64,000 nucleotides of DNA from an uncultured bacterium (GCA_964525185.1 CAZGFQ010000006.1:3573-67572), one strand, 5' to 3'. Counted from the first letter of the stretch, positions 11,985 to 58,890 are shown. Program-made: numbers and translations. The notes: a model not told the origin generated them from the sequence alone.

Positions 11985-12055
11985 CTGGGGCGTAGGGAAT
12001 CGAACCCCAACTACCTGGACCAAAACCAGGTGTCCTACCGTTAGACGACGCCCCA
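11985..12055 (-). tRNA. tRNA-Gln (anticodon UUG)
   Basis: I folded the cloverleaf by hand. Acceptor TGGGGCG/CGCCCCA, anticodon stem CCTGG/CCAGG with loop TT-TTG-GT, T-arm TGGGG-TTCGATT-CCCTA. CCA is not encoded. Confidence 0.9.
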
Positions 12056-42812: not shown

Positions 42813-42906
42813 TTTAACTCCTTTGTTTGTTTTTCTTGCTTGCAAGCAACAATAAATGGGAATACAATCTGTATTTTACTCCACCTATTGCGCCTTCTAC
42901 CTTCGT

Positions 42907-44007
42907 TTAAAAGGCGAAGTTTAAAGATAACCAGCTTACTCCACTGAAAAATTCAGCAGATCTGTATGCATAGTCTACGGATAAACCTACACCTAATAGT
43001 TTGGAAAAGTCCAGTCCAAATCCAAATGACGGACCCCAGATAAAATCTTCAGTTTTTTGTTCCCAAACAACATCTTCGCTATCATCGGTTGTACCTTCAA
43101 TACCGTCATCACCAAAGGGTTCTGGATCTTGGGCGAAAGCCATTCCGCCACGGAGATAAAGCATTCCCATGGTTTTAACTTCTGCGCCAAAGCGATATTC
43201 ATCGAATGAAAAATTGTTATTTAAAAAGGATGCTGCTAATGTAACATCATTTCCAGAAAAGGATTTATTGTATGCTGCTCCCATTTCAAATGTTGTGGGC
43301 ATTTCAAATTGAGATGTTCCAATTTGACGAGGCTCATTAGGCGTTCCTGGATCAGTACCTTCTGGTTGATGAAATTCGTCTAAGTCAGATCCGCTGAATT
43401 TCATATTTGTTCCTAGATTTCTAATGGATGCCCCAAGCTGAATATTATTAATATTGTATTGAACACCTGCGTCCACTGCAAATCCTGTTGCCGTTTCTCG
43501 CATAATGGATTCATTCACAATTTTAAATTCAGTTCCAAATCGAATCCGATCCGTTACGCGACGCGCATACATTGCGCCCAATGTAAAGAATCTCGGTGAA
43601 TACATTTCACCTGTTCCGTCAGGTTGATAACTTGTAGTAACAGGAATATCGCCAAAATTAAATGACTTTAAAGATACACCAAACATATTGGCACCTACAG
43701 ATGTGGCAACAATACCATAAGACATATCAATATCAGCAATCCAATTACTTTGAGAAAACATTGCTTCCCCATTTCCTTCCATACCACCTAAACCAGCAAT
43801 GTTCCAGTGAGCTGCCTCTACACCTGTAATACCAGCTACATAAGCACCAGACATTGCAGTTCCTCTAGAACCGAGAGGCATTAATAATTCCTGAGCGCCC
43901 GCTGTTCCACGGCGAGCTTTACTCCCCGCTTCTACTGCTGTGCTCAGAAAAAAGATCCCGAGCAAAAGCCCTATAGACACATATTTGTAATAAATAGATT
44001 TATACAT
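42907..44007 (-). CDS. PorV/PorQ-family-like outer-membrane beta-barrel (module A)
   Basis: Signal peptide, then GTAGAQELLMPLGSRGTAMSGAYVAGITGVEAAHWNIAGLG (compare the family motif ...aamGGA...NPAG). Also a beta-strand pattern and terminal LNFAF. Paralogous to 57814-58890. Confidence 0.65.
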   Translation of the reverse strand: MYKSIYYKYVSIGLLLGIFFLSTAVEAGSKARRGTAGAQELLMPLGSRGTAMSGAYVAGITGVEAAHWNIAGLGGMEGNGEAMFSQSNWIADIDMSYGIVATSVGANMFGVSLKSFNFGDIPVTTSYQPDGTGEMYSPRFFTLGAMYARRVTDRIRFGTEFKIVNESIMRETATGFAVDAGVQYNINNIQLGASIRNLGTNMKFSGSDLDEFHQPEGTDPGTPNEPRQIGTSQFEMPTTFEMGAAYNKSFSGNDVTLAASFLNNNFSFDEYRFGAEVKTMGMLYLRGGMAFAQDPEPFGDDGIEGTTDDSEDVVWEQKTEDFIWGPSFGFGLDFSKLLGVGLSVDYAYRSAEFFSGVSWLSLNFAF

Positions 44008-44022
44008 TCTATCCTCCGATGC

Positions 44023-47000
44023 TTAAAATAAGTCCAGCCGCTCTTCAGGCTGGAAGATTGCAAGTTTCAAAATTTTCTCTCCAATGGCAGAACCATTCTC
44101 ATCTGTGACGGTGATATATGCAATATATACACCACTTGCTACAGGAATACCATTGCTATTTCTCAAATCCCAAACAGCCCGGTTACCACCCGCGGCATTT
44201 TCACTTTCAACGCTATGGTCAAATCGTGTAACCAAATCTCCAGAAATGGTATAAATCCGAATTGTAGATGTACCTACACCTAAATGTGTAAAATAAACCA
44301 TTCTACCCTGAGGGTTACCCTCTTCTGGATTTTGTCCAAAATATGGATTGGGGAATACATTGATTTTTTCAATATCGAGTGAAACGTCTGCACTTGATGC
44401 TGTACCAATTGGAGTAAATTGATATTCGTCTACCCCTTGTACCAATGGATTATCAAATACAATTTCGATTTGATCGCCGCCTTGCCATACAGTATTGTTC
44501 CGATCGAAATTCAGTACCCAACCTGTTTGATCTGCATTATTTTGCGGATGAATAGGTGAAACAGAACTTGCATTATAATCTGTATATACAGGTACATATT
44601 GGAAGTTTGCTGAAAAAGCCCAATGGCTTACCGTTTCATCTTCATTAAATATAGCACCTTCAATTAAGCTAGACGGTTTTGATGCTCCAGCAACCTGGTA
44701 AGTCAAAACATTGATTTGTCTTTCTTCTCCGCCTTCAACATCCCATAATTCAAATGGAATCATAATTGTATCAGGATCCACATTCCCGCGTAACGATTGA
44801 ATATTTGCGTAAGAAGCGATAGATCCATTTTCCGTAAATCGTAATTCTAAATCGCGTTGCTTATCTGCTACACCAGGGACGCCATTCGCAGGTGAAAAAC
44901 CAGCATTTGCACCATAAGCATCAAATAAGAAATTCATATAATCTGCCCAAGCACTAAACCCGCCAGACCCTAACCCTGAAAAAGCAAGTGCAGAATTAAC
45001 TGTATCTGCCACCGTTTCTGTTGCGCTAGAATAATCGTTCACATCCCACAAACCATCTTGGAATGTTAAAATAAATCCATCTGTAATAGTATTATTAATA
45101 TAAACACCGTCAGGGTCAATTCCGCCATTTGCATCTTTTAAGATGGCAAAGTAGTCTTGTGTAATTGGGAATAGCGTATCTTCAGCAACGACTTCTCCAC
45201 CACTAGATAAAACCCATTTAGACCTAGTGCTGTCTGCTTCTTCAACTGTAACACTATATAATTCACCCGTTAATAAATATGGGTCAACCACATTTGGATA
45301 AATGGATGTTCCTGCTGTGCCGGACGTATGTGAATATTCCACATTTTCATTATTACCAATAGCTAATTCTGTTCCAACTCCTGGTGGATTTGGAATAGCG
45401 GTATACGAATAAATAGGACTTTCAATAACGCGTTTCGCTGCTTCTGGGTCATACGCATAAGCTGTAACAGCAAAATAATATTCACGATAATTAATTAATA
45501 ATCCACCATCTACATAATCTTGATCAATTTCAATAAAGTGATCAATACCAGTATCGGTACCAAACTGAGATGGGAATTCTAATAATTCTCCAGTAGCATC
45601 ATCTAAACCTTGATCAATGATTAATTTAATATCATCCACTAAATCATATGTGGTAATTCGCTTCCATGGACCTACAGCAGATTCACCTTGGTAAATATTA
45701 TACCCTTGGAATCCATATCCAGCACATGAATATTCTTCAACTTTTTCTGCAATACCTTCAAATGATAAAACTACTTTTCGATCCATTTGAGACACTTCTA
45801 CTTCTGGAGCTGGAGGTGAACACACATTAAAGTTTGCATCAAAAGCACCTTGAGCAAAATTATCATAGTATTTCATTTTTGTAATAGACTTTTGCCAATC
45901 GCCACTTGCTGCAATTATGATAGAACCTACAACTTCTGCTGTGTCGCCTACATTAAAAGTAAATGGACCTGATGTCATCATATAACGACGATCACCTTCG
46001 GTATGATCTAAATCACCAGCCCCCGTAACCGGGTTTCCTGCATGGCGGAATAAGGTAGGTTCACCTGTACCTGGATCAACAAATTGTTCTCCTGTTTCAC
46101 CGTTTCTACCATTCATGTAATTTAGAGCTTCTTCGGCTGTCTCGGGGTCACCCGCTGTTGGATCACTATTTGTATATTTAGCAAAAGATGTAAGGCCGAG
46201 TCTTTTCTTACCGTTAAAGGTTTTTACAAAATAACTAGAATCTTGCGACCATGTTAATATAGATGCAGTATCTCCTTCAGAGTCCACTAGAGGTCCCTGA
46301 AAGAAGTCCGCACCGGCAGCTGGAACACCAGCACCGTATAACATATCTGCACCAGCATTATATGTATATCCAACACTCAATAAAGTATCACAACCGACTA
46401 AATCGTCACTTGCATCGCCAACATCATCATCATGCCACATAGATACATAAACACTATCTAAATCATCTGTACCTTTGTTAATAGCCACCCAGCGAACAAA
46501 AAGAATATTTCCTAGGGCGCCTGCTTGGTTAAAACCAAAAACAGATGTTTGAACTTCAACACCCATAGGAACCGTTCCCCATAAGTTTTGATGTGTTGCG
46601 GCATCACCATCATTCATAACATACCAATGAAACATGTCTCCTAAAATATCAGGATAATCACCATCTTGTATGTTATATACACCATCACCGTTTGCATCTA
46701 TCCACGGAGCCCCATCTTCTGCGGGCCAATTTTCAAAATCACTTGTAGGAAATGATTTTGTTGCTGGCTCAGTAAATATATTAGCACCATCAATTTTCGT
46801 AATGGGTAATGAAGCACTCATAGCGCTATAAGTGGCATAATCATTTTCAAGAAAAGCATCTAGTTCCGCACGATGAATTTGATAAATATGTCCATCGCTC
46901 GTACCGGACATATTCCCCGGCACAAATTCCGCAGAATATTCTGATGCAGCAGAACGCACATCATCCGTATATGGCGTTGTATCATCTTCATCCGACAAGG

Positions 47001-47313
47001 AAGGATCGTTTGGTCTTGATTTTGCACTTATCATCCAAAGACCAGATTGAAAAATAGCAAATTTGCCACTCCCCTTTGGCCATTCAGTTCCAGAACTTCC
47101 CGTTACGTGATAACTTGATACGTCGCCATGATTACCATGTACAGTGGAAATATTATTTCCATCCCATAAAACGTGTTCAATTACACCCGAGTTAGGAAAC
47201 ATAGATTTGAACAATCCGTTCGCATGGTCTGGGTCTCCTACTTTATTTGTTGGTTCTGCAGCCATTAGCATTGTGCCCATAGCCAACAGAAGAATTATTT
47301 TTTTAATTTGCAT
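44023..47313 (-). CDS. ~1100-aa secreted protein: unknown N-terminal domain, FN3-like middle domain, T9SS/FlgD-Ig-like C-terminal domain (module A)
   Basis: I prefer the ATG at 47313 (MQIKKIILLLAMGTMLMA), which follows AGGAGA. FN3-like PPAPEVEVSQMDRKVVLSFEG...FQGYNIYQGES. CTD INVFPNPYFG...IRIYTISGDLV...WDLRNSNGIPVASGVYIAYITV. Paralogous to 54518-57817. Confidence 0.75.
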   Translation of the reverse strand: MQIKKIILLLAMGTMLMAAEPTNKVGDPDHANGLFKSMFPNSGVIEHVLWDGNNISTVHGNHGDVSSYHVTGSSGTEWPKGSGKFAIFQSGLWMISAKSRPNDPSLSDEDDTTPYTDDVRSAASEYSAEFVPGNMSGTSDGHIYQIHRAELDAFLENDYATYSAMSASLPITKIDGANIFTEPATKSFPTSDFENWPAEDGAPWIDANGDGVYNIQDGDYPDILGDMFHWYVMNDGDAATHQNLWGTVPMGVEVQTSVFGFNQAGALGNILFVRWVAINKGTDDLDSVYVSMWHDDDVGDASDDLVGCDTLLSVGYTYNAGADMLYGAGVPAAGADFFQGPLVDSEGDTASILTWSQDSSYFVKTFNGKKRLGLTSFAKYTNSDPTAGDPETAEEALNYMNGRNGETGEQFVDPGTGEPTLFRHAGNPVTGAGDLDHTEGDRRYMMTSGPFTFNVGDTAEVVGSIIIAASGDWQKSITKMKYYDNFAQGAFDANFNVCSPPAPEVEVSQMDRKVVLSFEGIAEKVEEYSCAGYGFQGYNIYQGESAVGPWKRITTYDLVDDIKLIIDQGLDDATGELLEFPSQFGTDTGIDHFIEIDQDYVDGGLLINYREYYFAVTAYAYDPEAAKRVIESPIYSYTAIPNPPGVGTELAIGNNENVEYSHTSGTAGTSIYPNVVDPYLLTGELYSVTVEEADSTRSKWVLSSGGEVVAEDTLFPITQDYFAILKDANGGIDPDGVYINNTITDGFILTFQDGLWDVNDYSSATETVADTVNSALAFSGLGSGGFSAWADYMNFLFDAYGANAGFSPANGVPGVADKQRDLELRFTENGSIASYANIQSLRGNVDPDTIMIPFELWDVEGGEERQINVLTYQVAGASKPSSLIEGAIFNEDETVSHWAFSANFQYVPVYTDYNASSVSPIHPQNNADQTGWVLNFDRNNTVWQGGDQIEIVFDNPLVQGVDEYQFTPIGTASSADVSLDIEKINVFPNPYFGQNPEEGNPQGRMVYFTHLGVGTSTIRIYTISGDLVTRFDHSVESENAAGGNRAVWDLRNSNGIPVASGVYIAYITVTDENGSAIGEKILKLAIFQPEERLDLF

Positions 47314-47345
47314 TGTATTATATCTCCTATTTTCCTGACTCATCA

Positions 47346-50300
47346 TTATAAATCAATCCTGAAACCAATTCGTACTTGTCTTGGTTCTTCCCAATTATAA
47401 GGATTTGACAGTTTGGAATTATAAAGGTTAGCGGCTTGTTCCTGTGTCGCTGTTCCATTAAAAGCAGCAGTTGTCATCCAATTAACACCTTCATCTGTTC
47501 CAAGCCAACCATCATTATCAGCTTGACCAGTTGCGGGATAAATTGTACTTACATTTCTGAAATCTAAGAGGTTTTTCACCCAGACAAAGAATTTCATATT
47601 GTATTTACCAAAACTCAAACCTTTGTCCACTTTTAAATCTACATTCATAGACCAAGGCATATTTGCTGAATTAAATGCAGCAGTAGGTCGGTAAGAAATT
47701 CCACCTGTTAAAACTTCTGTGTCTACTTGGACTGGAGTGTACGGAAGACCACTACCAAATCTCATTAATAAATTCATACCAAATAATGGTAATCTAGAAC
47801 GAGCTCCTGTGCGGTAATCAAGCGCTAGATTTCCAGTGTGGCGCTGATCAAAATCAAGAGGTGAAACATAGGTTAAATTATTACCACCTTGCCAAGCAAT
47901 ACGATAATTACCACCTGCGCTTGACCCTGTACCCCCCGCATACTGTAGAGTGTAATTCGCATCAAGCATTAAATTACTTACTCTCCGAGTTTTTAATGAT
48001 AAGCTTAATCCTTTAACTGTACCATAATCCCCATTCACATATAGAGCATATCCAACGGGACGTGCAGCAATATTTCGAATTTGAGGGTAACCTGTCATTT
48101 GTTTGTAAAAAACGGTAGCATCAATACTTATATCAGACGAAACCATTTGTTTAAAACCAATTTCGTATTGTGTGTTTTCTTGTGGTTGTAAATCTGGGTT
48201 TGCGGAAATAGTGAAATTCCCTTGGCTCAAATTTTGAACAAATCGAATATAACTTACAAACAAACGATTATTTTCAGGCTGTTGGAAATATTTTCCATAC
48301 TGTGCGTGAAATACCGTTTTATCTGAAATTGGGAATGCCATACCAACACGCGGGCTAATTAATGATCTTGGTTCTGCATCAATACGGTGTGGACGACCTG
48401 TTTCATCTTCCGATGTGGGGTCCCAATAAATATATTCAGCGGGATCTAATATGCCATTTTCATCCGCATCTTTTGCATAAACTGTTTCAGCAATTTGATT
48501 GTTATCATCAATAACAATATTATTTGCTCCACCTGTTTCAGGGTTGAAAATTTGGTTCGCTGGGTCGAAATAATCATAACGTAATCCTAAATTCAAAACT
48601 AAATCGTTTAACTCAATTTTGTCTCGAAGATAAAATGCTCTGCTATTAGGGCGACGCGCATCATCTTGACCTGAGTTTACTTCTTCTTCACCTGTAATAT
48701 TGTATCCAATATTTTCAGCATAAGCAGATGCATACGCTTGATGTTTATAATTACCAAAATAATCATCATAATCTGAATCGCCATCGCCGTCATAATCATC
48801 ATTTTTCCAGGAATCAGTATCATCTTGAGTATAATCTAAGACGCCATCTTGACCCATAGTGACAGACAGTGCGGAATCTAAAACGACACCATTTGAATCA
48901 GTATCAGTTGCAACCCATTCATAATTCCAAATATCTTGAGTTCCTGAATATGGCGCATTTACTGAAAAATAGTTTGTAACAGAACGAGAGCGGCTCAACC
49001 TATAATAACGAATCATACTATTTGTTATTTCAAATCCTGCTTTCAATTCGTGATTATTATACTGCCACGTCAATGAACCGGTAAATGCATCTCTAGAAGT
49101 GTTGCGTTTTGTATAATTACTTCCGTCTGCGCTTGTATATCCAGCTTTAGTATAGTTTGCTAATTCTAAATCTGGAGTTGGCATTTTTGCATTTCCGTTA
49201 TATAGTGGGTTGATATAATTCATATCGTCATACCGCATTTCGTTATAATGCCAAAATGCTGTTGAGTCCCACGCCCAATATACACTTGTATCTTGAGCCC
49301 ACGATTGTGAACCAATATCTACCGTATCGAAATTCCAATAATCATAATCATAAACACCTAAAATATTATCATTAGAGTCAGTGACCACATATTGATAAAC
49401 AGGATCACTAGTATAATCATACATTTTACCTGAATTAATATAAGGAACTTCCAGTCCAGATAATGTTCCGTCTTCATAAGTAAATTGACCATAACTTTGA
49501 TCAAAAACAGGATCATAATACTTATACGAATCTTCCGAGTGACTGTATTGCACATTAAAAAACATATTTTTAAATGCAGGAATAGCGCCACTCAAATTAC
49601 CATAGTAAGATAAAAACCCATTGTCTGATTTATTAAATCTATTTATCCAATCGCCTGTGCCAACTTTATTGGATGTGCTATTTGGGCTATACATATCGAA
49701 CAAGGAGCGTGAATGACTATAATTAGATCGCTCACTATTAAATGATGACCCACCTATTTTTAATTTCCAGGGTAATTTAAACTTTGGCTGAAAATCAATA
49801 AGGACGTTACCGGCAATACTTGATTTTTCAATCCAGTTATTTGGCTTAGGCCCCCATCTATATTCTACATCGTCAGCTGAAATATCGCGATAATCTGGCG
49901 CGTCGTATTCGCCATTACCGTTATTATCTGTATATACTTCTGCGGGAGTATCAATGCCCTCATCGTAAACACCGTTTGCATCTTTATCAATAAAATCATC
50001 CCAAATGGTATTCCCATTTGCGTCAATATAATTATCACCAACATCAGGCCGGCCTGCAGCATCAAGTTCGCCTGTATAATAAGGGATTGTTGCATTTGTT
50101 GGGCTTGCATCTGCTAAACTAGATTGTTCAACAGAAAGGAAGTATCGTAACCAGTTTAATCCTGGAACGGGTCCACCTAAAGCAAATGAACCTAATTGGT
50201 ACCCGTAAGAATAAGCGAATGGTTTATCTACTGATGCATCGGGAGAACCAAAATCTTTAATACCTTCAACGGTAATATCTAAATCAGATCCACCTGTTTT

Positions 50301-50990: not shown

Positions 50991-51221
50991 AAGTAACTCC
51001 TGACTAACTAATCAATGTGTAAAATATTAAAAACCTCGGCTTTTTGGGGTGTAACTAACCCTAGAGCGGAAGGGAATATGTAACATTTTTTCAAATGATT
51101 CAAGAAAAAACAAGATAAATATGCCTTTTGAAAATATAGAACTTTTCCCTTGATACAACCACACCTAATGCTCTACCTTTACCTTTATTTTCAACCTGCG
51201 TTATTCTGGAGGAAGCGCTTT

Positions 51222-54200
51222 ATGAAAAAAACATTATTCTATTTCATTATTGTATCTTTCCTGTTTGCTGGTGATACTGGGAAACTCAAGGGGATTATTA
51301 CTGACCTTACGTCCGGAGATCCGCTGATTGGCGTGAATATCGTTTTAAAAAATACAACAATGGGAACCGCATCCAGTCAAAATGGTGACTATTCCATTAT
51401 TTTTATACCTGCTGCAAAATACACGGTTTCTGTATCATACATTGGCTACAAAACAATTATTGTTCAGGATGTAATTATTAATGCAAACCATACTACGCAA
51501 TTGAATTTCAAAATGGATATATCTGCGGTTGATGGTGAAGAAATAACCGTGGAAGCAGAAAGACCAATTATTGTTCGAGATCAAACAGCAACAACCATTA
51601 CGATGGAAGAAGAAAAGTTGGAAAATATGCCTATCAACTCCTTTGAAGATGCCATGACAACAATGGCTGGGGTTATTGAAAATGATAATTCAGAAAGTGG
51701 GATTCATTTTAGGGGCGGGCGTACTGGAGAGGTTACTTTCCTTGTGGATGGTTTTGTTGTTGAAGATGCGCTATATGGGGAAATGGGTATGGATGTTTCT
51801 CGAAGTGCCATTTCTGAATTATCTGTAATTACTGGCGCCTTCAATGCAGAGTACGGGGAAGCTATGAGCGGTGTTGTAAATATTGTAACAAAAGAAGGTC
51901 GTTCAGATTATTCGTGGAGTCTTCGCGGTGTTTCCGATAACTTTTTTAACAACGAAATTAATGACTGGGATCAATCTCGAATTGAGGGAACTTTCAGTGG
52001 CCCCCTTCTATTTTTCAAGCCAAATATTGCAACTTTTTTTGTTTCTGCAGATCGTTTAAATACACGAACATCTCTTTGGAAAAATAAATTACCTTTCAAT
52101 GTATGGAAAGATGTAAATGATGACGGTATTGATGGAAATTGGCTCGATTTGAATGAAGATGGTATTGAGGATGAAAATGAAGTCGATACATTGGCGATGG
52201 CTGATATTAATTTAGATGGTATCCCAGATCTACTTTCAGAGGGTAATATTGAAGAGTCGGGCGCTTATCGTATTCGAGATCGTTACAATGCTAAGCTAGT
52301 CTTGCGTCCCATTTCAAAATTAAAACTTACCATAGGGTACAATAAATTTTCTGAAGAATCTCAATCTTTTTCTATGAGTTATAGACAGCTACCCGATCGA
52401 AGTGGAATTGATTTTGACCTTTCGACTGATTTACAAATAAAAGCAAGCTATGCTGTTTCAGAGGATATGTATATCACCGCTCGTTACCAAGACCATAAAA
52501 CAGAATCATGGTATGGCTATGAAACATTATTATCCGAGAATCATGAACTAGAAAGTAAAATAATAAATATTCCTAAAGGATGGGAAGGATACACGCCCGA
52601 AACAGTTCCTGCTGGAGAAGATTACTTATGGTTGGGATATTATGCTGAACCTTATGCAGACATGAATGGTGATGGTGTTTGGAGTATTTATTCAACTGAA
52701 TGGTGGAATGATGAGAATGGAAATGGTATCTGGGATAATGATGAACCCTATAGCGACTGGAATAATGATAGTTCGTGGAATGTCTTTAATTGGGAAGATG
52801 AAAACGGTAATGATGCTTGGGATGCCGGAGAAGCTATTCTTTCTGATGAATATTGGGATATTCAATCGGGCGCAACATCCACAAATCCTGAAAATTATGA
52901 CTGGGGCGTTGATGCGCGATTAAGAGAGGGCGACGCATATGATAATACATCAAACTATGAATTTTACGGGCGCTACAATATTTATAACATTTATGGAGAT
53001 TCGATAAGAGAGGGTGTTTCCACAATGCATGATTATACGTGGTATAAATCTAACTATAAAAGTTGGGGTGGAGATATTACTTGGCAAATTAATAAACAAC
53101 ACCAATTAAAGGCGGGGTTTGAACAAAAAAAATATGATTTAGCTCGATTTGCGGCGTACGGAATTGGAGGTGGATATTTTGGCAATTCCGGCGATCCGTC
53201 CTTCATTATGTATGAGCATCAACCTGAATCTCAAAGTTGGTATATCCAAGATAAAATTGAATATAATGATGTGGTCGTTAATATCGGGATTAGAATGGAT
53301 CAGTTAGACCCAAAAAGTCACTACCCAGACCCAACTCAAGAATTGGGGTATTATTATTCTGATGGTGGCGAAACTGTATGGATTGAACCGAGTGATGTCG
53401 GTTCTCTAACTGTCGAAAATTCTGAAAATTTGGAATGGGGTTACTTAAATCGAGATGATAATGGAAATATCACAGGTGGAACGCCAGCACCCGATGCTGA
53501 AATTAAAAGTCAATTTAGCCCAAGGTTAGGTATTGGGTACCCCATAACGGATAAAGTTGCTTTTCATTTTTCGTATGGACACTTTTACCAGTTTCCAGAC
53601 TTGTACTATATGTATAATTATGGGAACCAAGAAGGAAATAACATTGCAGCTCCGGGGTGGTCTGGCAATGCAAATTCCATGGCTCAAAATAATAATTTAT
53701 ATGGGAATAATTTATTTCCATTTCCATATAATTTATCCGATTGGTATATCCCGGAAGTTGGGAGTCCAAATGTAAGCCCTCAGAGATCTGTGCAGTATGA
53801 AATGGGGCTAAGAACCTGGATTGGAGAACATTATGTATTAAGCTCCACTTTATATTATAAAGATTTGTTTGATTATGCCGCTTCTCGGATTTATGATGCC
53901 GACCCACAACAATATGCAGTTTATGAAAATATGGATTATGCAAATTCCCGAGGATTTGAAATTTCTCTAGAAAAACTATTTTCAAATAATTATAGTTGGT
54001 ACATCAATTATGCTATGGCCCGCGCGGAAGGTAATGCGCCTAACTCATCTTACCATTGGGATGTGGCTTATTTGGAATCCGTCTACGGGTGGCGTGATTA
54101 TAATCGCACATTTACGATGGACTGGGACCAAACACATACTATAAACATCGGGATTGATTATCAACATCCAAAAGGGTTTGGAATAAATGTATTAGGAAAT

Positions 54201-54515
54201 ATTGGAAGTGGGTTGCCTTACACACCTACAGACTCCAGAGGGCGCCCAATTGATGAACCAAATTCAGGTCGAATGCCGCCTACTGCAAATTTCAATATGA
54301 AAGCATTTTACGATTTGCCGGTTAAAAAAACAAAAGCACGATTATTTATGGATATTACAAATGTGTTTAATTATCAAAATGTGCTTCGCGTCTTCGGAAA
54401 TTCAGGACAACCTGATGTAAATCTAAATCCCAATATTTCCCCTATGTATCTATGGCGTCCATACTATTACAGTTCGCCTAGACATATTGAAGTTGGCTTA
54501 AGTGTAGGAATGTAA
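51222..54515 (+). CDS. SusC-like TonB-dependent outer-membrane receptor (module B, paralog of 47346-50990)
   Basis: I prefer the ATG at 51222 (MKKTLFYFIIVSFLFA), 8 nt after GGAGGA. The ORF-track TTG at 51150 has no Shine-Dalgarno. Same domain order: GKLKGIITDLTSGDPLIGVNIVLKN..., FRGGRTGEVTFLVDGFVVED, FNAEYGEAMSGVVN. Confidence 0.8.
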   Translation: MKKTLFYFIIVSFLFAGDTGKLKGIITDLTSGDPLIGVNIVLKNTTMGTASSQNGDYSIIFIPAAKYTVSVSYIGYKTIIVQDVIINANHTTQLNFKMDISAVDGEEITVEAERPIIVRDQTATTITMEEEKLENMPINSFEDAMTTMAGVIENDNSESGIHFRGGRTGEVTFLVDGFVVEDALYGEMGMDVSRSAISELSVITGAFNAEYGEAMSGVVNIVTKEGRSDYSWSLRGVSDNFFNNEINDWDQSRIEGTFSGPLLFFKPNIATFFVSADRLNTRTSLWKNKLPFNVWKDVNDDGIDGNWLDLNEDGIEDENEVDTLAMADINLDGIPDLLSEGNIEESGAYRIRDRYNAKLVLRPISKLKLTIGYNKFSEESQSFSMSYRQLPDRSGIDFDLSTDLQIKASYAVSEDMYITARYQDHKTESWYGYETLLSENHELESKIINIPKGWEGYTPETVPAGEDYLWLGYYAEPYADMNGDGVWSIYSTEWWNDENGNGIWDNDEPYSDWNNDSSWNVFNWEDENGNDAWDAGEAILSDEYWDIQSGATSTNPENYDWGVDARLREGDAYDNTSNYEFYGRYNIYNIYGDSIREGVSTMHDYTWYKSNYKSWGGDITWQINKQHQLKAGFEQKKYDLARFAAYGIGGGYFGNSGDPSFIMYEHQPESQSWYIQDKIEYNDVVVNIGIRMDQLDPKSHYPDPTQELGYYYSDGGETVWIEPSDVGSLTVENSENLEWGYLNRDDNGNITGGTPAPDAEIKSQFSPRLGIGYPITDKVAFHFSYGHFYQFPDLYYMYNYGNQEGNNIAAPGWSGNANSMAQNNNLYGNNLFPFPYNLSDWYIPEVGSPNVSPQRSVQYEMGLRTWIGEHYVLSSTLYYKDLFDYAASRIYDADPQQYAVYENMDYANSRGFEISLEKLFSNNYSWYINYAMARAEGNAPNSSYHWDVAYLESVYGWRDYNRTFTMDWDQTHTINIGIDYQHPKGFGINVLGNIGSGLPYTPTDSRGRPIDEPNSGRMPPTANFNMKAFYDLPVKKTKARLFMDITNVFNYQNVLRVFGNSGQPDVNLNPNISPMYLWRPYYYSSPRHIEVGLSVGM

Positions 54516-54517
54516 AC

Positions 54518-57500
54518 ATGAAAAAATATTTAATAATTACCTTATTACTTAATATTGCAATCCATGCGGGTAACCCAACAACTGGGCTTTCTAAACGTGA
54601 ATATTATAATCAATTTATAGCCCCTTCAAAAGGACGAGCTCCTCTTGGTAGACCCGCAGCATATGACGACAGAAAGCGAAGTGTTCTTGATAAAGGAAAT
54701 ATGGTTTTACGTTTATCGAATGCCGCAATTTATGGATATGATCGCTGGGGATTAAACCATGAATTCCCCGCTGGAAGCATGATAACAAATGGGTGTTGTA
54801 CATACTATTGGACACAAGCACCCATGGTGGGTGCATTAAAAAATGGTGTCCCATCTGTCTCTGTGGGTGTTCGGGGTTCTGTACGAGATTCGGAAGAAGA
54901 GTTTGAACCGTTACCGGGTTATGATGCTGGATATAGTGACACAGATCAAAATATTGGAATTGCTTTCAGCGATATGGAGCAATCTTGGCCAGATCGATGG
55001 CCTATTGAAGCGGATCCAACAGGAACGTTTGCATCCGTTTTGTATGATGCAAACGGCAATGTTGAAGATACGCTTTATTTCCCTGGCGTGGAGCCGGCGT
55101 TAGGGCCGGAAGGATTCCCGGATGCTCCATGCGGATTGGGTGTTCAAGCTGACAGAGAAGCTTATTTTGTTGTAACTGATAATGACCCAACAGATGGAAA
55201 TACTTACGCAAGCAACAATGGCGTTGGTCCACTAAATGTACGTATCGATACTTGGGTATTAAATTATGCAAATACCTTTGGGAATGATGGACTTATATTT
55301 ATTCAGAAAATGACAAATGTGGGTAATGATACCTTAAGGGATTTATACTTTGGAATCGCTGGAGATCCAGATGCGCCAGAACAAGGAAGCGCGGAATGGA
55401 CTGATGATTTATGTATGCTCATTTCTGCAGATGATCCTCACATTGCAGAAAAATTATCTGACACTACGGATGCACATTTATTAGAAAATTTAGCCATTGT
55501 TTGGGATCCGGATGATGAATCATCGGGGTTTGTGTCATCTGGACTTGGGTGGATTGGACTCAAATTTCTTGAATGTACAAAATACAATATGGATGGTTCA
55601 ATTCAATCATATGATATTTCAACTTTTTATACATACGAATACAGTGAAGATTCCCAAAGCGACAATGATGCATATAATATTCAAATGAGTCATGGAATAC
55701 AAGAACCACATAATATTGAACCGCCTTCTAATGATTTATTCCAAAAACCTTATTCTTACGGCCCTGATATAACGTGGATTGTTGCTGCGGGCGGACCAGA
55801 ACAAGTAACAGCAGATGGCGATACTATTCCAGAAATGGCTGTGGCGCCGGGAGAATATGTCATTTTTACTTTTGCTGATTTTATGGGAATTAATGAAGCG
55901 GATTTATTAAGGAATGCAAAAGTTTTTCAATCCTTATATGATAACAATTGCGCCAGTCCACAACCACCACAACCTCCAGTTGTACATGCCGTTCCGCAAG
56001 ATGGAAAAGTTGCTCTATTCTGGGATAATCGCAGTGAAAATTCTATCGATCCTGTAACAGGAAATAATGCATTCCAAGGATATCGTGTTTATAGAAGTTC
56101 TGATCGGGGAAATACCTGGGGCTCAGTGGTAACAGATTTTAATGGCAACCCAACTGATTTTTATAAACCGCTGGCTATTTTTGATAAAATGGACGGACTC
56201 AATGGAGCCTATGCAATGTCTGACCCATTAATTTATTATAATCTCGGAAATGACGACGGATTACGTTATTCGTTTATTGATCAAGATTTGGTAAATGGTT
56301 ATGAATATTGGTATTCCATTTCTGCTTATGATGGACCTGACGATTGGTCTGGAGCCCGTGTGGACCCCATGGAAAATGCTAAAGTAAAGAATGCATTTAT
56401 AGATGGAGATAATACCATTTCAATTGTTCCGCAAGGCAAGTCCCTTGGGCATGAAATTGGAGATAAAAATGTAATACATACGGGTATAGCAAAAGCTACT
56501 TTGAGTGCGGTGGATGCAGAAGCATTTGTCTTTGATTTTTTAGGTGAAGTAGAAGTAGAAGAGTCCGATTTTGTAAGTAAGGGCTATTCGTATTCCGTTG
56601 ACTTTTATGATGATGGAATATCTATAGATTCTACCGATGATGATATGGCAAACTGGGATACAACGTATTTTTCATATTGGACATTAACAAACTCAACAAC
56701 AGGAGAAACTATTATAGATCAAGATTCCGATGTAGAATCAGGTAAAATGAAATATGTTATTGATGGTTTTATCCCCGTCTTCAACAATGCATCGTTTACC
56801 ATTTCTGGAGCAGACACTGTTATTCATACTGTTTTAGATAGTCTTGCATCAAACCTTGCTTTTACAGGTGGTGGAGCATCTGGGGCTGCCAACCCATCTT
56901 GGGGTGGTTTTGTTGACTATTTATATAATAATTATCCTGCATCCGCTGGATTTTCTCCACCATCCGATATTATTAGCTATAAAGAATTGGGTGTTGATCT
57001 ACAAATTAGATTTACAGAATCGGGGTCCATTGCATCATACTATAATTTAAATATTCTGAGAGGAAATGCTGACCCAGATACTATACAACTTCCCATCGAA
57101 ATATGGGATACAGAAAATAACCAACGACTTAACTTAGCTGTTTATCAGGTTGCTGGGAATTCAAAGCCAGTTCCTCCGTGGGTACCAGACAGTTCAATTG
57201 TGGTTGATTCTGTTTTCACAAATTCTGACACCACGCTTGATTCGTCTTGGGCTCATTATTACTCCCTGTCTACTAATTTGCAATTAGTTCCAATTCATGA
57301 TGAGTATATTGGTTCATCCAATACATATCACTTTGCAGAAGATGCCGGTCTTATGGGGTGGGTCTTGAATTTCAACACAAGTAATTTACGTTTTAATTAT
57401 GGCGATATATTAGATATTGTATTCCCAAACCCTATTGTTCCGGGAGAAGATCAATACATAATTCAAACTACAGCAGATGGTACCTCGTCAGATTTAGATT

Positions 57501-57817
57501 TAAGTGAAATTTTAGTTGTTCCAAATCCGTATGTTGTCACATCTGCTTACGAATATATTCAATATCAAAAAGAAATTCAGTTTACCCGCCTTCCTGAAGA
57601 ATGTATGATTCGTATTTACAATTCAGCGGGGGAATTGGTTCAGGTGATTAACCATGAAGTCGGTAGTCCTGGGTATCGAGGGTCTAGTATTGAAGCTTGG
57701 GATTTACGAACATATAATAATCAAGATGTAGCTTTTGGAGTATATATATTCCATGTAGTTTCTGGAGGATTTGAAAATGGGAAGGAACATATTGGAAAGT
57801 TTGCGGTGATCAAATGA
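54518..57817 (+). CDS. ~1100-aa secreted protein with FN3-like and T9SS/FlgD-Ig-like C-terminal domains (module B)
   Basis: Signal peptide. PPVVHAVPQDGKVALFWDN...FQGYRVYRSSDRGNTW (FN3-like). IRFTESGSIASYYNLNILRGNADPDTIQLPIEIWD matches LRFTENGSIASYANIQSLRGNVDPDTIMIPFELWD in module A. CTD ILVVPNPYVV...IRIYNSAGELV...WDLRTYNNQDVAFGVYIFHVV...GKFAVIK. Confidence 0.75.
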   Translation: MKKYLIITLLLNIAIHAGNPTTGLSKREYYNQFIAPSKGRAPLGRPAAYDDRKRSVLDKGNMVLRLSNAAIYGYDRWGLNHEFPAGSMITNGCCTYYWTQAPMVGALKNGVPSVSVGVRGSVRDSEEEFEPLPGYDAGYSDTDQNIGIAFSDMEQSWPDRWPIEADPTGTFASVLYDANGNVEDTLYFPGVEPALGPEGFPDAPCGLGVQADREAYFVVTDNDPTDGNTYASNNGVGPLNVRIDTWVLNYANTFGNDGLIFIQKMTNVGNDTLRDLYFGIAGDPDAPEQGSAEWTDDLCMLISADDPHIAEKLSDTTDAHLLENLAIVWDPDDESSGFVSSGLGWIGLKFLECTKYNMDGSIQSYDISTFYTYEYSEDSQSDNDAYNIQMSHGIQEPHNIEPPSNDLFQKPYSYGPDITWIVAAGGPEQVTADGDTIPEMAVAPGEYVIFTFADFMGINEADLLRNAKVFQSLYDNNCASPQPPQPPVVHAVPQDGKVALFWDNRSENSIDPVTGNNAFQGYRVYRSSDRGNTWGSVVTDFNGNPTDFYKPLAIFDKMDGLNGAYAMSDPLIYYNLGNDDGLRYSFIDQDLVNGYEYWYSISAYDGPDDWSGARVDPMENAKVKNAFIDGDNTISIVPQGKSLGHEIGDKNVIHTGIAKATLSAVDAEAFVFDFLGEVEVEESDFVSKGYSYSVDFYDDGISIDSTDDDMANWDTTYFSYWTLTNSTTGETIIDQDSDVESGKMKYVIDGFIPVFNNASFTISGADTVIHTVLDSLASNLAFTGGGASGAANPSWGGFVDYLYNNYPASAGFSPPSDIISYKELGVDLQIRFTESGSIASYYNLNILRGNADPDTIQLPIEIWDTENNQRLNLAVYQVAGNSKPVPPWVPDSSIVVDSVFTNSDTTLDSSWAHYYSLSTNLQLVPIHDEYIGSSNTYHFAEDAGLMGWVLNFNTSNLRFNYGDILDIVFPNPIVPGEDQYIIQTTADGTSSDLDLSEILVVPNPYVVTSAYEYIQYQKEIQFTRLPEECMIRIYNSAGELVQVINHEVGSPGYRGSSIEAWDLRTYNNQDVAFGVYIFHVVSGGFENGKEHIGKFAVIK

Positions 57818-58890
57818 AGAAACTTTTATTTATCTTAACAACATTTGCAATTTTAAATGGGCAATTCGACAATGCATCAACATCGGCAGCTAACTTTTTG
57901 AAGGTTGAAGTAGGCGGACAAGCAGCAGCAATGGGAGGTGCATTCACAGCACAAGTCAGTGATGTGTCTGCCTTATTTTGGAATCCTGCTGGAATAACCG
58001 GTATCGGCAAATCAGAAGTAATGATAAGTCAAACAGAATGGATTGGAGATATTAATCATAATTTTCTTGCTGCCGCTGTTAAATTTGGCCGACAAGGGTA
58101 TCTTGGATTAAGTATTAATCAAATGGCTTATGGTGAAATGACTCGAACGACGGAGTTTTCCCCTGAAGGAGAAGGTACATTTACCGCTAATGATTTGTCC
58201 CTTGGGTTAGCCTATGGCACACAAATCAGTGATAAATTTTCCACAGGAATTCAATTCAAAATCATTAGAGAAACAATTTCCTTTTCCAGCGCCAATGCGG
58301 TAGCTGTTGATGTGGGTTCTCAATATACAACATCATTTTCTGGATTAAAAATTGGAATGGCCATTACTAATTTTGGTTCAAAAATGACCCTAACCGGAAC
58401 GGATCAAAAAGTGGATATTGATGCATATGAAGATTTAAATGGTAACCCAGATGTGATTGCTCGACTTGGTACAGAACAATGGTCACTCCCAATGACATTT
58501 AAAGTTGGGCTCTCCTTTTCCCCCATTGGTCCAGATGCGATCATAAAACAAGAAAAAGTGAGCTTTATTATTAATACAGAATACAGTGACCCAAGAGATT
58601 TTAATCCTATTTATATGGCTGGCGCAGAATTGACAATAATGAAGCTTCTTTATCTTAGAGCTGGTGTTAAAAATACTTTTTTGAGATATCCAGATGATTT
58701 AGATGATGAATCAGATAAAGCAATGTCAGACTATGAAAAAGGTGAATACATTAATCGATTTTCTATGGGATTTGGGTTGTCCTCAAAGAATTTTCCATTT
58801 ATACCTTATCACTTAAATCTCGATTATGCCTACTCAGATTTAGGGTTGCTTGGCTGGGTTCCGAGACTAACAATAAAGATTAATTTCTGA
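57814..58890 (+). CDS. PorV/PorQ-family-like outer-membrane beta-barrel (module B)
   Basis: ATGA overlap with the upstream gene. SAANFLKVEVGGQAAAMGGAFTAQVSDVSALFWNPAGI is the family-typical N-terminal motif. Terminal TIKINF. Confidence 0.7.
   Translation: MKKLLFILTTFAILNGQFDNASTSAANFLKVEVGGQAAAMGGAFTAQVSDVSALFWNPAGITGIGKSEVMISQTEWIGDINHNFLAAAVKFGRQGYLGLSINQMAYGEMTRTTEFSPEGEGTFTANDLSLGLAYGTQISDKFSTGIQFKIIRETISFSSANAVAVDVGSQYTTSFSGLKIGMAITNFGSKMTLTGTDQKVDIDAYEDLNGNPDVIARLGTEQWSLPMTFKVGLSFSPIGPDAIIKQEKVSFIINTEYSDPRDFNPIYMAGAELTIMKLLYLRAGVKNTFLRYPDDLDDESDKAMSDYEKGEYINRFSMGFGLSSKNFPFIPYHLNLDYAYSDLGLLGWVPRLTIKINF

What the first reader, a model, noticed from the sequence alone, without database searches (positions are those of the whole stretch)
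42907..58890. Two mirror-image paralogous three-gene modules: SusC-like receptor + ~1100-aa T9SS-CTD protein + PorV/PorQ-like barrel, with no SusD
Two gene triplets lie back to back around a 231-nt spacer.

- Minus strand: 50990->47346 (1214-aa receptor), 47313->44023 (about 1100 aa), 44007->42907 (366-aa barrel).
- Plus strand: 51222->54515 (receptor), 54518->57817 (1099 aa), 57814->58890 (358-aa barrel).

Each positional pair is clearly homologous. The receptors share GDVGKVVGTVVDKENGSPLPGVNVML versus GDTGKLKGIITDLTSGDPLIGVNIVL. The large proteins share LRFTENGSIASYANIQSLRGNVDPDTIMIPFELWD versus IRFTESGSIASYYNLNILRGNADPDTIQLPIEIWD. The barrels share the AMxGA...W-N-x-A-G N-terminal motif. 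Gene junctions are 2-32 nt gaps or an ATGA overlap, so each triplet looks like one operon.

In characterised Bacteroidota systems, a CarboxypepD_reg-type SusC receptor pairs with a SusD lipoprotein. Here there is no SusD-like gene. The invariant partner is instead a giant protein carrying a type IX secretion C-terminal domain, and a PorV/PorQ-type barrel is hard-wired into each operon. PorV/PorQ is the family that binds, shuttles or anchors CTD cargo.

This suggests an uptake machine whose surface-exposed binding or processing subunit is delivered and anchored through the T9SS route. I know of no described system with this composition.
Basis: partly seen in the sequence, partly recalled or inferred. 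Interest (0 to 1): 0.82.

Follow-up and report, generated by a model that had tools for sequence, protein, structure and literature searches.

The report
TonB receptor operon with T9SS-anchored partner
Two back-to-back copies of a three-gene operon (a TonB-dependent outer-membrane receptor, a ~1,100-residue surface protein with a type IX secretion tail, and its own PorV/PorQ-type barrel) sit in a marine Marinimicrobia genome; this triplet is strictly conserved across many relatives of the Bacteroidota, I found no description of it, and it probably replaces the SusD lipoprotein with a secreted, barrel-tethered partner.

Summary
Two divergent triplets flank a 231-nt spacer, and each positional pair is homologous: receptors 27-35% identical, large proteins 32% over about 630 aa, barrels 30%.

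- **Barrels:** both pass the NCBIfam PorV/PorQ family cut-off. Neither reaches the specific PorV, PorQ or PorV2 models.
- **Receptors:** both have CarboxypepD_reg + Plug + TonB barrel with a TonB-box-like motif. They fail the SusC/RagA model, so "SusC-like" holds for architecture only.
- **Large proteins:** no Pfam domain and no lipobox. The models are all-beta. The C-terminal domains are divergent type A domains closest to those of PorZ and PorU, which are retained and barrel-bound.

The order receptor, large protein, barrel holds in all 79 genome loci found, wherever the contig allowed. It also holds in 5 metagenome places for 5 distant relatives, and in 3 of 3 look-ups started from the barrel. 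The lineages include Marinimicrobia, KSB1, Kryptoniota, Calditrichota, Ignavibacteriales and Rhodothermales. No SusD or other gene is conserved alongside. The large-protein family has 1,554 50%-identity clusters at E<1e-30.

Best reading (inferred, about 0.55): a TonB-dependent uptake unit whose surface partner is exported by the T9SS and held by its own barrel. Eight paper searches found no description. I rate it a new variant of known kinds.

The parts
47346..50990 (-). Receptor of the minus module (1214 aa): signal peptide, CarboxypepD_reg N-terminal extension, Plug, 22-strand-type TonB-dependent barrel with D/N-rich loop inserts
   Evidence: Pfam hits PF13715/PF13620, PF07715, PF00593 and PF25183 are all above cut-off. 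The SusC model TIGR04056 gives no hit. There are five DxDxDG-like motifs.
50622..50648 (-). TonB-box-like motif EEVVVVADK (residues 115-123), directly after the CarboxypepD_reg domain
   Evidence: Read from the sequence. It resembles classical TonB boxes such as DTLVVTA and ETITVTA (my own knowledge). Not tested.
44023..47346 (-). Large protein of the minus module (1107 aa from the first ATG; probable start 47313). It has a Sec signal peptide without a lipobox, a family-variable N-terminal ~450 aa, a conserved C-terminal chassis and a C-terminal domain (CTD).
   Evidence: No Pfam family. It matches the plus-type profile only at positions 417-1044. Homologs occur in Marinimicrobia, KSB1, Melioribacteraceae and Ignavibacteriaceae, and NCBI names some of them 'T9SS type A sorting domain-containing protein'.
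44026..44349 (-). Divergent T9SS type A C-terminal domain of the minus-module large protein
   Evidence: NCBIfam on the isolated domain: PorZ CTD 30.4 bits, PorU CTD 27.1 bits, generic TIGR04183 22.1 bits against a cut-off of 23. FlgD_ig gives 20.7 bits.
42907..44007 (-). PorV/PorQ-family outer-membrane barrel of the minus module (366 aa)
   Evidence: NF033709 PorV_fam gives 127.5 bits against a cut-off of 90. PorV2 (69.7), PorQ (53.3) and PorV (42.6) are all far below their equivalog cut-offs.
50991..51221 (.). 231-nt divergent spacer between the two operons
   Evidence: Sequence. No Rfam family matches. Sigma-70-type promoter matches are no more frequent than in shuffles.
51222..54515 (+). 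Receptor of the plus module (1097 aa): CarboxypepD_reg, Plug, TonB-dependent barrel, D/N-rich loop inserts
   Evidence: Pfam hits above cut-off. TIGR04056 gives 64.6 bits against a cut-off of 368, on the N-terminal 208 positions only. In the PDB only the N-terminal domain matches.
51537..51563 (+). TonB-box-like motif EEITVEAER (residues 106-114)
   Evidence: Read from the sequence. Not tested.
54518..57817 (+). Large protein of the plus module (1099 aa): signal peptide without a lipobox, conserved N-domain (28-480), FN3-like domain (481-645), variable middle (646-995) and CTD (996-1099)
   Evidence: No Pfam or NCBIfam family. The full-length AlphaFold2 model is all-beta (pLDDT 72). Foldseek finds FN3 arrays and the PorZ CTD. 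The N-domain model weakly resembles beta-supersandwich domains.
57503..57814 (+). Divergent T9SS type A C-terminal domain of the plus-module large protein
   Evidence: Foldseek match to the PorZ CTD 5m11: 120 columns, rmsd 4.7, 23% identity, probability 1.00. NCBIfam: PorZ 26.2 bits, PorU 23.7 bits, TIGR04183 14.3 bits.
57814..58890 (+). PorV/PorQ-family outer-membrane barrel of the plus module (358 aa)
   Evidence: NF033709 gives 176.9 bits against a cut-off of 90. PorQ gives 110 (cut-off 220), PorV2 75 and PorV 68.5. The best PDB sequence match is PorV 6h3i_F, E 2.8e-6.
40452..42845 (-). Possible fourth gene of the minus module: a 797-aa protein with a canonical T9SS type A CTD, 61 nt downstream of the barrel on the same strand
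   Evidence: PF18962 gives 29.6 bits and TIGR04183 35.8 bits, both above cut-off. It is 54% identical to the gene that follows the barrel in the related locus L084. The body has no known domain.

Best explanation
Each triplet is one operon that builds a TonB-dependent nutrient-uptake unit at the cell surface.

1. The receptor is the energised import channel. It has a plug, a TonB-box-like motif and a CarboxypepD_reg N-terminal extension.
2. The ~1,100-aa protein is exported by Sec and then across the outer membrane by the organism's type IX secretion system, using its C-terminal domain.
3. That C-terminal domain is not cleaved and transferred to lipopolysaccharide. It stays on the protein and binds the co-encoded PorV/PorQ-family barrel, as PorZ stays bound to PorQ and PorU to PorV. 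The barrel therefore acts as a dedicated shuttle and anchor.
4. The tethered, highly acidic, all-beta protein captures or presents a polymeric substrate to the neighbouring receptor. This is the role that SusD-type or other surface lipoproteins play in Bacteroidia. Its variable N-terminal and middle regions set the specificity of each paralogous module.

What is shown: the domain and family assignments, and the strict three-gene linkage across phyla. What is inferred: export by the T9SS, retention of the C-terminal domain on the barrel, contact with the receptor, and substrate capture.
For: **Family assignments**
- Both barrels pass the PorV/PorQ family cut-off. The best solved relative is PorV.
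- Both receptors have Plug, TonB barrel and CarboxypepD_reg, plus TonB-box-like motifs.
- The large proteins have signal peptides without a lipobox cysteine.
- Their C-terminal domains match the PorZ domain in structure.
- In sequence, those domains match PorZ and PorU more strongly than the generic model. In distant relatives, 15 of 41 hit the PorZ model against 6 of 41 for TIGR04183.

**Published precedent**
- The PorU and PorZ C-terminal domains are retained and bound to PorV and PorQ. The same review proposes that cognate PorV-like barrels protect such domains from cleavage (PMC10202324).
- Dedicated, adjacently encoded shuttles are shown experimentally for type B cargo (PMC12618676).

**Gene linkage**
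- The order receptor, large protein, barrel holds in 79 of 79 genome loci. The receptor was found in 78 and the barrel in 74. All six misses are explained by contig ends.
- It also holds in 5 metagenome places for 5 distant relatives.
- It holds in 3 of 3 look-ups started from barrel homologs.
- No other gene is conserved with the triplet.

**Resemblance to uptake loci**
- The modules are multi-copy and divergent. There are two here, tandem copies occur in L081/L082 and L088, and two loci come from one MAG (L005 and L024).
- The large-protein family has 1,554 50%-identity clusters at E<1e-30.
- The N-terminal head varies between the two module types. This pattern is typical of nutrient-uptake loci, not of single-copy secretion machinery.
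- Flanking genes are often degradative. They include an M14 carboxypeptidase, an amidohydrolase, GH2, S9/esterase, M20 and S51 peptidases, and other T9SS cargo.
- One locus has a Reg_prop/Y_Y_Y sensor kinase directly upstream.

**No enzyme signature in the large protein**
- No catalytic fold or motif was found.

**T9SS in the organism**
- Two neighbouring genes carry canonical above-threshold type A C-terminal domains, so the organism evidently uses a T9SS.
Against: - No physical interaction, localisation, expression or substrate was tested. A multimer model could not be run.
- The large-protein C-terminal domains fall below the curated type A cut-offs.
- The structure models are of only moderate to low confidence (pLDDT 72 and 63), and the N-domain fold matches have TM-scores of only 0.2-0.37. 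"Non-catalytic binding protein" is therefore weakly based.
- The neighbouring 797-aa cargo protein's canonical domain hits the PorU model even more strongly (43.7 bits). Resemblance to PorU alone is therefore not specific.
- Core T9SS genes (SprA, PorKLMN) were not located in this genome. The window holds none among the ORFs scanned.
- Flanking genes give no consistent substrate class.
- Conserved synteny proves co-function, not the particular division of labour proposed.
Confidence: 0.55

Rival explanations
1. Tethered enzyme variant. The architecture is as in the best explanation, but the large protein is a surface-anchored depolymerase of an unrecognised family (glycan- or protein-degrading). 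The receptor imports the products it releases.
For: - The N-domain is strongly conserved, with many invariant Asp, Glu, Arg and His residues.
- Weak fold matches are to domains found in glycoside hydrolases and phosphorylases.
- Degradative genes sit in the flanks.
Against: - The matched parts are the non-catalytic beta-sandwich domains of those enzymes. No (alpha/alpha)6, TIM-barrel or peptidase fold is present in the models.
- No HExxH motif was found, and no conserved GxSxG.
- No Pfam or NCBIfam family was detected in 41 diverse members.
Confidence: 0.15
2. Surface coat or adhesin plus an independent importer. The large protein and its barrel form a cell-surface structural, S-layer-like or adhesive unit. 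The receptor is merely co-regulated and imports a small solute without help from the large protein.
For: - FN3-like and beta-sandwich arrays and a very acidic composition are typical of surface-layer and adhesin proteins.
- Type B adhesins with dedicated barrels are a known T9SS theme (PMC12618676).
Against: The receptor gene is invariably first in the operon across at least six phylum-level lineages, with tight or overlapping junctions. Mere co-regulation would be unlikely to survive that divergence. The many divergent paralogs also fit specificity diversification better than a coat.
Confidence: 0.15
3. Export or attachment device. The Oar-type receptor helps to secrete or assemble the large protein, as Oar does for PopC. 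Alternatively, the large protein and barrel form a PorZ/PorQ-like attachment-complex analogue that serves other T9SS cargo.
For: - The receptor has the Oar-subclass architecture, and Oar is required for protein export (PMC6434023).
- The C-terminal domain is closest to PorZ, and the plus-strand barrel's best specific match is PorQ.
- Canonical T9SS cargo genes lie next to both modules.
Against: - The large protein carries its own T9SS-type export domain, so a second exporter is unnecessary.
- PorZ's beta-propellers and PorU's C25 peptidase domain are absent.
- The PorQ, PorV and PorZ equivalog cut-offs are missed by wide margins.
- Core machinery is normally single-copy, whereas these modules are multi-copy with a variable head domain.
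Confidence: 0.1

Closest known systems
SusC/SusD (RagA/RagB) pairs of Bacteroidia polysaccharide and peptide utilisation loci
   Same: A TonB-dependent transporter with a CarboxypepD_reg N-terminal extension is encoded next to a surface-exposed partner. Many divergent paralogous modules occur per genome. Degradative enzymes and sensor regulators are sometimes nearby.
   Different: The receptor fails the SusC/RagA model TIGR04056. The partner is not a TPR-type SusD lipoprotein: it is a ~1,100-aa all-beta protein without a lipobox that carries a T9SS C-terminal domain. A third obligatory gene, a PorV/PorQ-family barrel, is present.
PorZ-PorQ and PorU-PorV pairs of the T9SS attachment complex (Porphyromonas gingivalis)
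   Same: A PorV/PorQ-family barrel is paired with a protein whose C-terminal domain is retained and bound to the barrel (PMC10202324). The large-protein C-terminal domains are most similar to those of PorZ and PorU.
   Different: There are no PorZ beta-propellers and no PorU C25 peptidase domain. The equivalog cut-offs are not met. The modules are multi-copy and always follow a TonB-dependent receptor gene.
Type B cargo with adjacent cognate PorP/SprF-like shuttles (e.g. SprB-SprF, Flavobacterium johnsoniae)
   Same: The cargo gene and its dedicated outer-membrane barrel gene are adjacent. The barrel determines the secretion and final location of that cargo (PMC12618676).
   Different: Here the barrel belongs to the PorV/PorQ family, not PorP/SprF (PF11751 gives only 19.4 bits, below cut-off). 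The C-terminal domain is type A-like. A TonB-dependent receptor is part of the unit.
Slam-dependent surface lipoprotein plus TonB-dependent receptor clusters of Proteobacteria (TbpA/TbpB/Slam) - my own knowledge, not tested here
   Same: The logic is the same: receptor, surface-displayed capture protein, and a dedicated outer-membrane barrel that puts the capture protein on the surface, all encoded together.
   Different: The protein families are unrelated. The capture protein there is a lipoprotein, and no T9SS is involved.
Oar subclass of TonB-dependent transporters (Myxococcus xanthus Oar)
   Same: The domain architecture is identical: CarboxypepD_reg N-terminal extension, Plug with TonB box, and barrel (PMC6434023). 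PF25183 also hits the minus-strand receptor.
   Different: Oar acts in export of PopC and has no linked T9SS cargo or PorV-like barrel. Sequence relatedness to Oar itself was not measured.

Membership tests
PorV/PorQ family (NCBIfam NF033709) | Whole-protein HMM score above the curated cut-off (90 bits) | tested here: met
   127.5 bits (minus barrel) and 176.9 bits (plus barrel), both aligned end to end.
PorV/PorQ family (NCBIfam NF033709) | Membership of a specific equivalog: PorV (NF033710, cut-off 250), PorQ (NF033711, cut-off 220) or PorV2 (NF052325, cut-off 325) | tested here: not met
   The best scores are 110.3 (PorQ), 75.0 (PorV2) and 68.5 (PorV) for the plus barrel. For the minus barrel they are 69.7, 53.3 and 42.6. 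These barrels form a separate subfamily.
PorV/PorQ family (NCBIfam NF033709) | Binds the C-terminal domain of T9SS cargo | not testable with these tools
SusC/RagA TonB-linked outer membrane proteins (TIGR04056) | Whole-protein HMM score above the cut-off (368.25 bits) | tested here: not met
   64.6 bits for the plus receptor, on profile positions 2-208 only. No hit for the minus receptor.
SusC/RagA TonB-linked outer membrane proteins (TIGR04056) | An adjacent SusD/RagB-family lipoprotein gene | tested here: not met
   No SusD-like Pfam or NCBIfam hit in the triplet or flanks. No conserved fourth gene across the 79 loci.
TonB-dependent transporter | Plug domain (PF07715) plus TonB_dep_Rec barrel (PF00593) above the gathering scores | tested here: met
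   Plug 38.4 and 38.7 bits; barrel 85.6 and 75.1 bits.
TonB-dependent transporter | A TonB box N-terminal to the plug | tested here: inconclusive
   The motifs EEVVVVADK and EEITVEAER are at the expected place. They were judged by eye only.
Oar subclass of TonB-dependent transporters | CarboxypepD_reg N-terminal extension + Plug + barrel architecture (PMC6434023) | tested here: met
   PF13620 and PF13715 are above cut-off in both receptors. SusC proteins share this architecture, so it does not discriminate between the two.
T9SS type A C-terminal sorting domain (TIGR04183 / PF18962) | HMM score above the cut-off (23 / 27 bits) | tested here: not met
   TIGR04183 gives 17.8-22.1 bits (minus) and 14.3 bits (plus). 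PF18962 gives 12 bits (minus) and nothing for the plus protein. The neighbouring cargo genes score 35.8 and 36.1 bits.
T9SS type A C-terminal sorting domain (TIGR04183 / PF18962) | C-terminal beta-sandwich fold like solved C-terminal domains, ending at the protein's C-terminus | tested here: met
   Foldseek match to the PorZ domain 5m11: probability 1.00, 120 columns, rmsd 4.7, 23% identity. Profile hits to the C-terminal domain regions of the PorZ and PorU models. Some homologs are named T9SS type A sorting proteins by NCBI.
SusD-like or surface lipoprotein partner | Lipoprotein signal peptide with a lipobox cysteine | tested here: not met
   The N-termini MKKYLIITLLLNIAIHAGNPTT and MQIKKIILLLAMGTMLMAAEPTN contain no cysteine.

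The most novel reading that the evidence does not exclude
This triplet is a previously unrecognised, SusD-independent class of outer-membrane "utilisome". It is widespread in FCB lineages outside the Bacteroidia: Marinimicrobia/SAR406, KSB1, Calditrichota, Kryptoniota, Ignavibacteria and Rhodothermia. In it the type IX secretion system is used to build nutrient importers, not only to release enzymes or adhesins. A cargo protein with a non-cleaved PorZ-like C-terminal domain is docked on a private PorV/PorQ-type barrel and works as the substrate-capture lid or arm of a TonB-dependent transporter. If so, it would be a main route for uptake of high-molecular-weight organic matter by abundant deep-ocean bacteria.
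Probability: 0.4. Interest if true: 0.85.

Novelty: new variant of a known kind. Interest (0 to 1): 0.72.

Why it matters
**For ocean carbon cycling.** Marinimicrobia (SAR406) are among the most abundant bacteria of the dark ocean, and how they take up complex organic matter is poorly understood. A conserved, multi-copy receptor module that lacks SusD would give concrete candidate genes for that uptake.

**For T9SS biology.** The finding would extend the idea of cognate PorV-like barrels that retain a C-terminal domain. That idea currently rests on PorZ/PorQ and PorU/PorV, two components of the secretion machine itself. Here it would apply to a very large family of ordinary cargo: 1,554 50%-identity clusters at E<1e-30. 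It would also tie the secretion system physically to TonB-dependent import.

**For annotation and experiments.**
- It gives annotators a rule for thousands of "hypothetical proteins".
- It points to cultured carriers, such as Roseithermus sacchariphilus, in which the model can be tested genetically.

Tried and rejected
- **Apparent receptor-large protein fusion.** A 1913-aa ORF in L003 would have been Rosetta-stone evidence for interaction. It is an artefact of a 100-N scaffold gap.
- **Spacer and regulatory signals.**
  - No riboswitch or other Rfam element lies in the spacer or anywhere in the region.
  - Sigma-70 promoter and terminator matches are no more frequent than in shuffles.
  - Aligning the spacer with three relatives showed only closeness of relationship, not a discrete motif.
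- **Catalytic motifs.** HExxH and HxxEH are absent from the large proteins. Single GxSxG matches are not conserved between the two paralogs.
- **PDB sequence searches.** The large proteins and the 797-aa neighbour gave nothing beyond a marginal hit to the PorU C-terminal domain.
- **Conserved extra gene.** A search for a conserved fourth gene or a hidden SusD found none across phyla. Flanking gene families differ between lineages.
- **Literature.** Eight searches found no description of the triplet. The held library is incomplete, so this is absence of evidence only.
- **Not run.** Mirror-tree co-evolution analysis was considered and dropped, because shared operon inheritance would make it uninformative.

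Full report
**1. The observation**

- Minus strand: 47346..50990 (1214 aa), 44023..47346 (1107 aa from the first ATG) and 42907..44007 (366 aa).
- Plus strand: 51222..54515 (1097 aa), 54518..57817 (1099 aa) and 57814..58890 (358 aa). A GGAGG lies 8 nt before the ATG at 51222.
- Junctions: a 2-nt gap and an ATGA overlap on the plus strand. On the minus strand, a 1-nt overlap (or a 32-nt gap) and a 15-nt gap. The spacer is 231 nt.

Each positional pair is homologous.
- Receptors: 35% and 27% identity in two blocks (E 8e-45 and 9e-46).
- Large proteins: 32% over 632 aa (1e-60).
- Barrels: 30% over their full length (1e-38).

One refinement applies. The N-terminal ~450 residues of the two large proteins are not detectably related. 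A profile of the plus-type family matches the minus-type protein only from profile position 417 onward. Between the paralogs, the best-conserved parts are residues 826-995 (39%) and the C-terminal domain (37%).

**2. The parts**

*Barrels.*
- Both pass the NCBIfam PorV/PorQ family model NF033709 end to end, with 127.5 and 176.9 bits against a cut-off of 90.
- Both miss the equivalog models for PorV, PorQ and PorV2 by wide margins.
- The best solved relative of the plus-strand barrel is PorV (6h3i_F).
- They are therefore a separate subfamily of the PorV/PorQ family, not FadL or OprD.

*Receptors.*
- Both have CarboxypepD_reg + Plug + TonB_dep_Rec.
- TonB-box-like motifs, EEVVVVADK and EEITVEAER, follow the N-terminal extension.
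- D/N-rich loop inserts carry five DxDxDG-like motifs in each receptor.
- They are not SusC/RagA members. TIGR04056 gives 64.6 bits against a cut-off of 368 on the N-terminal part of one receptor, and nothing for the other.
- The Oar subclass of TonB-dependent transporters has the same architecture (PMC6434023).

*Large proteins.*
- They have Sec signal peptides without a lipobox cysteine.
- They have no Pfam family, a net charge of about -100, and no HExxH motif.
- A full-length AlphaFold2 model (pLDDT 72, pTM 0.56) is entirely beta-rich.
- Foldseek finds FN3 arrays and beta-sandwich domains. For the last ~100 residues it finds the C-terminal domain of PorZ: 5m11, probability 1.00, 23% identity.
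- A separate N-domain model (pLDDT 63, pTM 0.70) resembles, weakly, the non-catalytic beta-supersandwich domains of GH94, GH116 and GH65 enzymes and of aldose epimerase (TM 0.2-0.37). No catalytic fold was recognised.
- The isolated C-terminal domains score best against the corresponding regions of the PorZ model (26-30 bits) and the PorU model (24-27 bits). They fall below the generic type A cut-off, with TIGR04183 at 14-22 bits against 23.
- By contrast, the two neighbouring cargo genes score about 36 bits on TIGR04183.
- PorZ and PorU are the two T9SS proteins whose C-terminal domains are retained and bound to PorQ and PorV (PMC10202324).

**3. Context and spread**

Homolog names place the window in Marinimicrobia (Fidelibacterota, SAR406). 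The rest of the window is ordinary chromosome: uvrA, priA, ruvB, proS, a pyrophosphatase and similar genes.

A scan of one genome per species with the large-protein alignment returned 79 loci. The record titles name these lineages:
- Marinimicrobia
- KSB1
- Kryptoniota
- Calditrichota
- Ignavibacteriales
- Rhodothermales, including the cultured Roseithermus sacchariphilus
- assorted Bacteroidota MAGs

tblastn and ORF calling show receptor, large protein and barrel on one strand in every locus.
- The receptor was found in 78 loci and the barrel in 74. Every miss coincides with a contig end.
- Clustering all flanking ORFs found no other gene shared across lineages, and so no SusD.
- Five more distant relatives gave 5 non-redundant metagenome places with the same order (L081 and L082 are the same locus). 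These include tandem copies and a Melioribacteraceae locus preceded by a Reg_prop/Y_Y_Y sensor kinase.
- Starting instead from barrel homologs, 3 of 3 look-ups gave the same triplet.

An exhaustive profile search counts 9,907 representatives at E<1e-3 and 1,554 at E<1e-30. Most share profile positions ~415-1039 and have different N-termini. Forty-one diverse members carry no Pfam or NCBIfam family except C-terminal domain hits. PorZ is the commonest of those, in 15 of 41 members.

Flanking genes vary. They include an M14 carboxypeptidase, an amidohydrolase, GH2, S9/esterase, M20 and S51 peptidases, and other T9SS cargo.

**4. How it most likely works**

Shown:
- Three genes of assignable kinds are inherited as a unit, in fixed order and with tight junctions, across deep divergence.
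- They exist in many divergent copies.

Inferred:
- The large protein is exported by the T9SS.
- Its PorZ-like C-terminal domain is retained and bound by the private PorV/PorQ-type barrel, which acts as shuttle and anchor.
- The tethered protein serves the adjacent TonB-dependent receptor as a substrate-capture subunit, or possibly a processing subunit. This replaces the SusD-type or other surface lipoproteins of Bacteroidia.
- The variable head and middle regions would set specificity.

I put this at about 0.55. The rivals are:
- a tethered enzyme of unknown family (0.15)
- a surface coat or adhesin with an independently acting importer (0.15)
- an export or attachment device on the Oar/PopC or PorZ/PorQ model (0.10)

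Against the last rival stand the multi-copy, head-variable nature of the modules and the absence of PorZ or PorU body domains.

**5. Comparison with known systems**

It works like a SusC/SusD pair but fails both membership tests: the SusC model and an adjacent SusD. Its cargo-barrel half resembles PorZ-PorQ and PorU-PorV, and also the adjacently encoded type B cargo and PorP/SprF shuttles (PMC12618676). It differs from these in barrel subfamily, in cargo body and in its obligatory link to a receptor. The logic also parallels the Slam, surface-lipoprotein and receptor clusters of Proteobacteria (my own knowledge, unrelated proteins).

**6. Novelty and verdict**

Eight full-text searches found no description of this triplet. 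The library is incomplete, so this is not proof.

Every component is of a known kind. The combination, and its scale outside the Bacteroidia, appear undescribed. I rate it a new variant of a known kind, with interest 0.72.

- The "SusC" label holds only for architecture.
- The C-terminal domain is divergent.
- The uptake role is untested.

**7. Limits**
- No multimer prediction, expression data or whole-genome census was possible.
- Two fold libraries were unavailable.
- The structure models are of moderate to low confidence.
- Core T9SS genes were not located for this organism. The two canonical cargo genes in the window imply that a T9SS is present.

Noticed in passing
window 40452-42845 (-): A 797-aa protein with a canonical, above-threshold T9SS type A C-terminal domain lies 61 nt downstream of the minus-strand barrel on the same strand. 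It is 54% identical to the 804-aa gene that follows the barrel in the related locus L084. The minus-type module may therefore be a four-gene unit. The body of the protein has no Pfam or PDB match.
   Followed up: partly
window 58894-61341 (-): An 815-aa protein with Kelch repeats, weak M12/astacin-like peptidase hits and a canonical T9SS C-terminal domain converges on the end of the plus module. T9SS cargo genes also flank the triplet in L083, L084, L086 and L089.
   Followed up: partly
window 51222-54515 (+) and 47346-50990 (-), receptor residues ~290-340 and ~480-530 (plus), ~320-370 and ~700-745 (minus): Both receptors carry D/N-rich inserts with five DxDxDG-like (calcium-loop-like) motifs each. 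Distant members of the large-protein family have an IDNDxDG...DGIDNDxDW stretch. Whether these acidic loops mediate calcium-dependent contacts is unknown.
   Followed up: no
L085 1-4425 (Melioribacteraceae, GCA_016342755.1): A sensor kinase with Reg_prop/Y_Y_Y domains and two LuxR-type response regulators lie directly upstream of a triplet. This sensor type regulates polysaccharide utilisation loci in Bacteroides. A second receptor and a 464-aa unknown gene follow the barrel.
   Followed up: no
L081/L082 1-11665 and L088 2-9059: Modules occur in tandem: the barrel of one module sits upstream of the next receptor. This recalls arrays of paralogous uptake loci.
   Followed up: no
L003 845-6586: An apparent 1913-aa receptor-large protein fusion ORF is caused by a run of 100 N (a scaffold gap) that happens to stay in frame. 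It is not a real fusion.
   Followed up: yes
L078 (CALRIY020000042.1): A complete triplet sits on a contig of a MAG labelled Synechococcus sp. UW140. This is most likely a binning contaminant from an FCB-group organism.
   Followed up: no
window 11985-12055 (-): This is the only Rfam match in the window, a tRNA gene. The rest of the window is housekeeping chromosome (uvrA, priA, ruvB, queA, prs, proS, a membrane pyrophosphatase, mgtE).
   Followed up: partly
window 44033-44054 (-): A terminator-like hairpin followed by a T-run overlaps the last codons of the minus-strand large-protein gene, just before the barrel gene. Such matches were no more frequent than in shuffled sequence, so it may mean nothing.
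   Followed up: no
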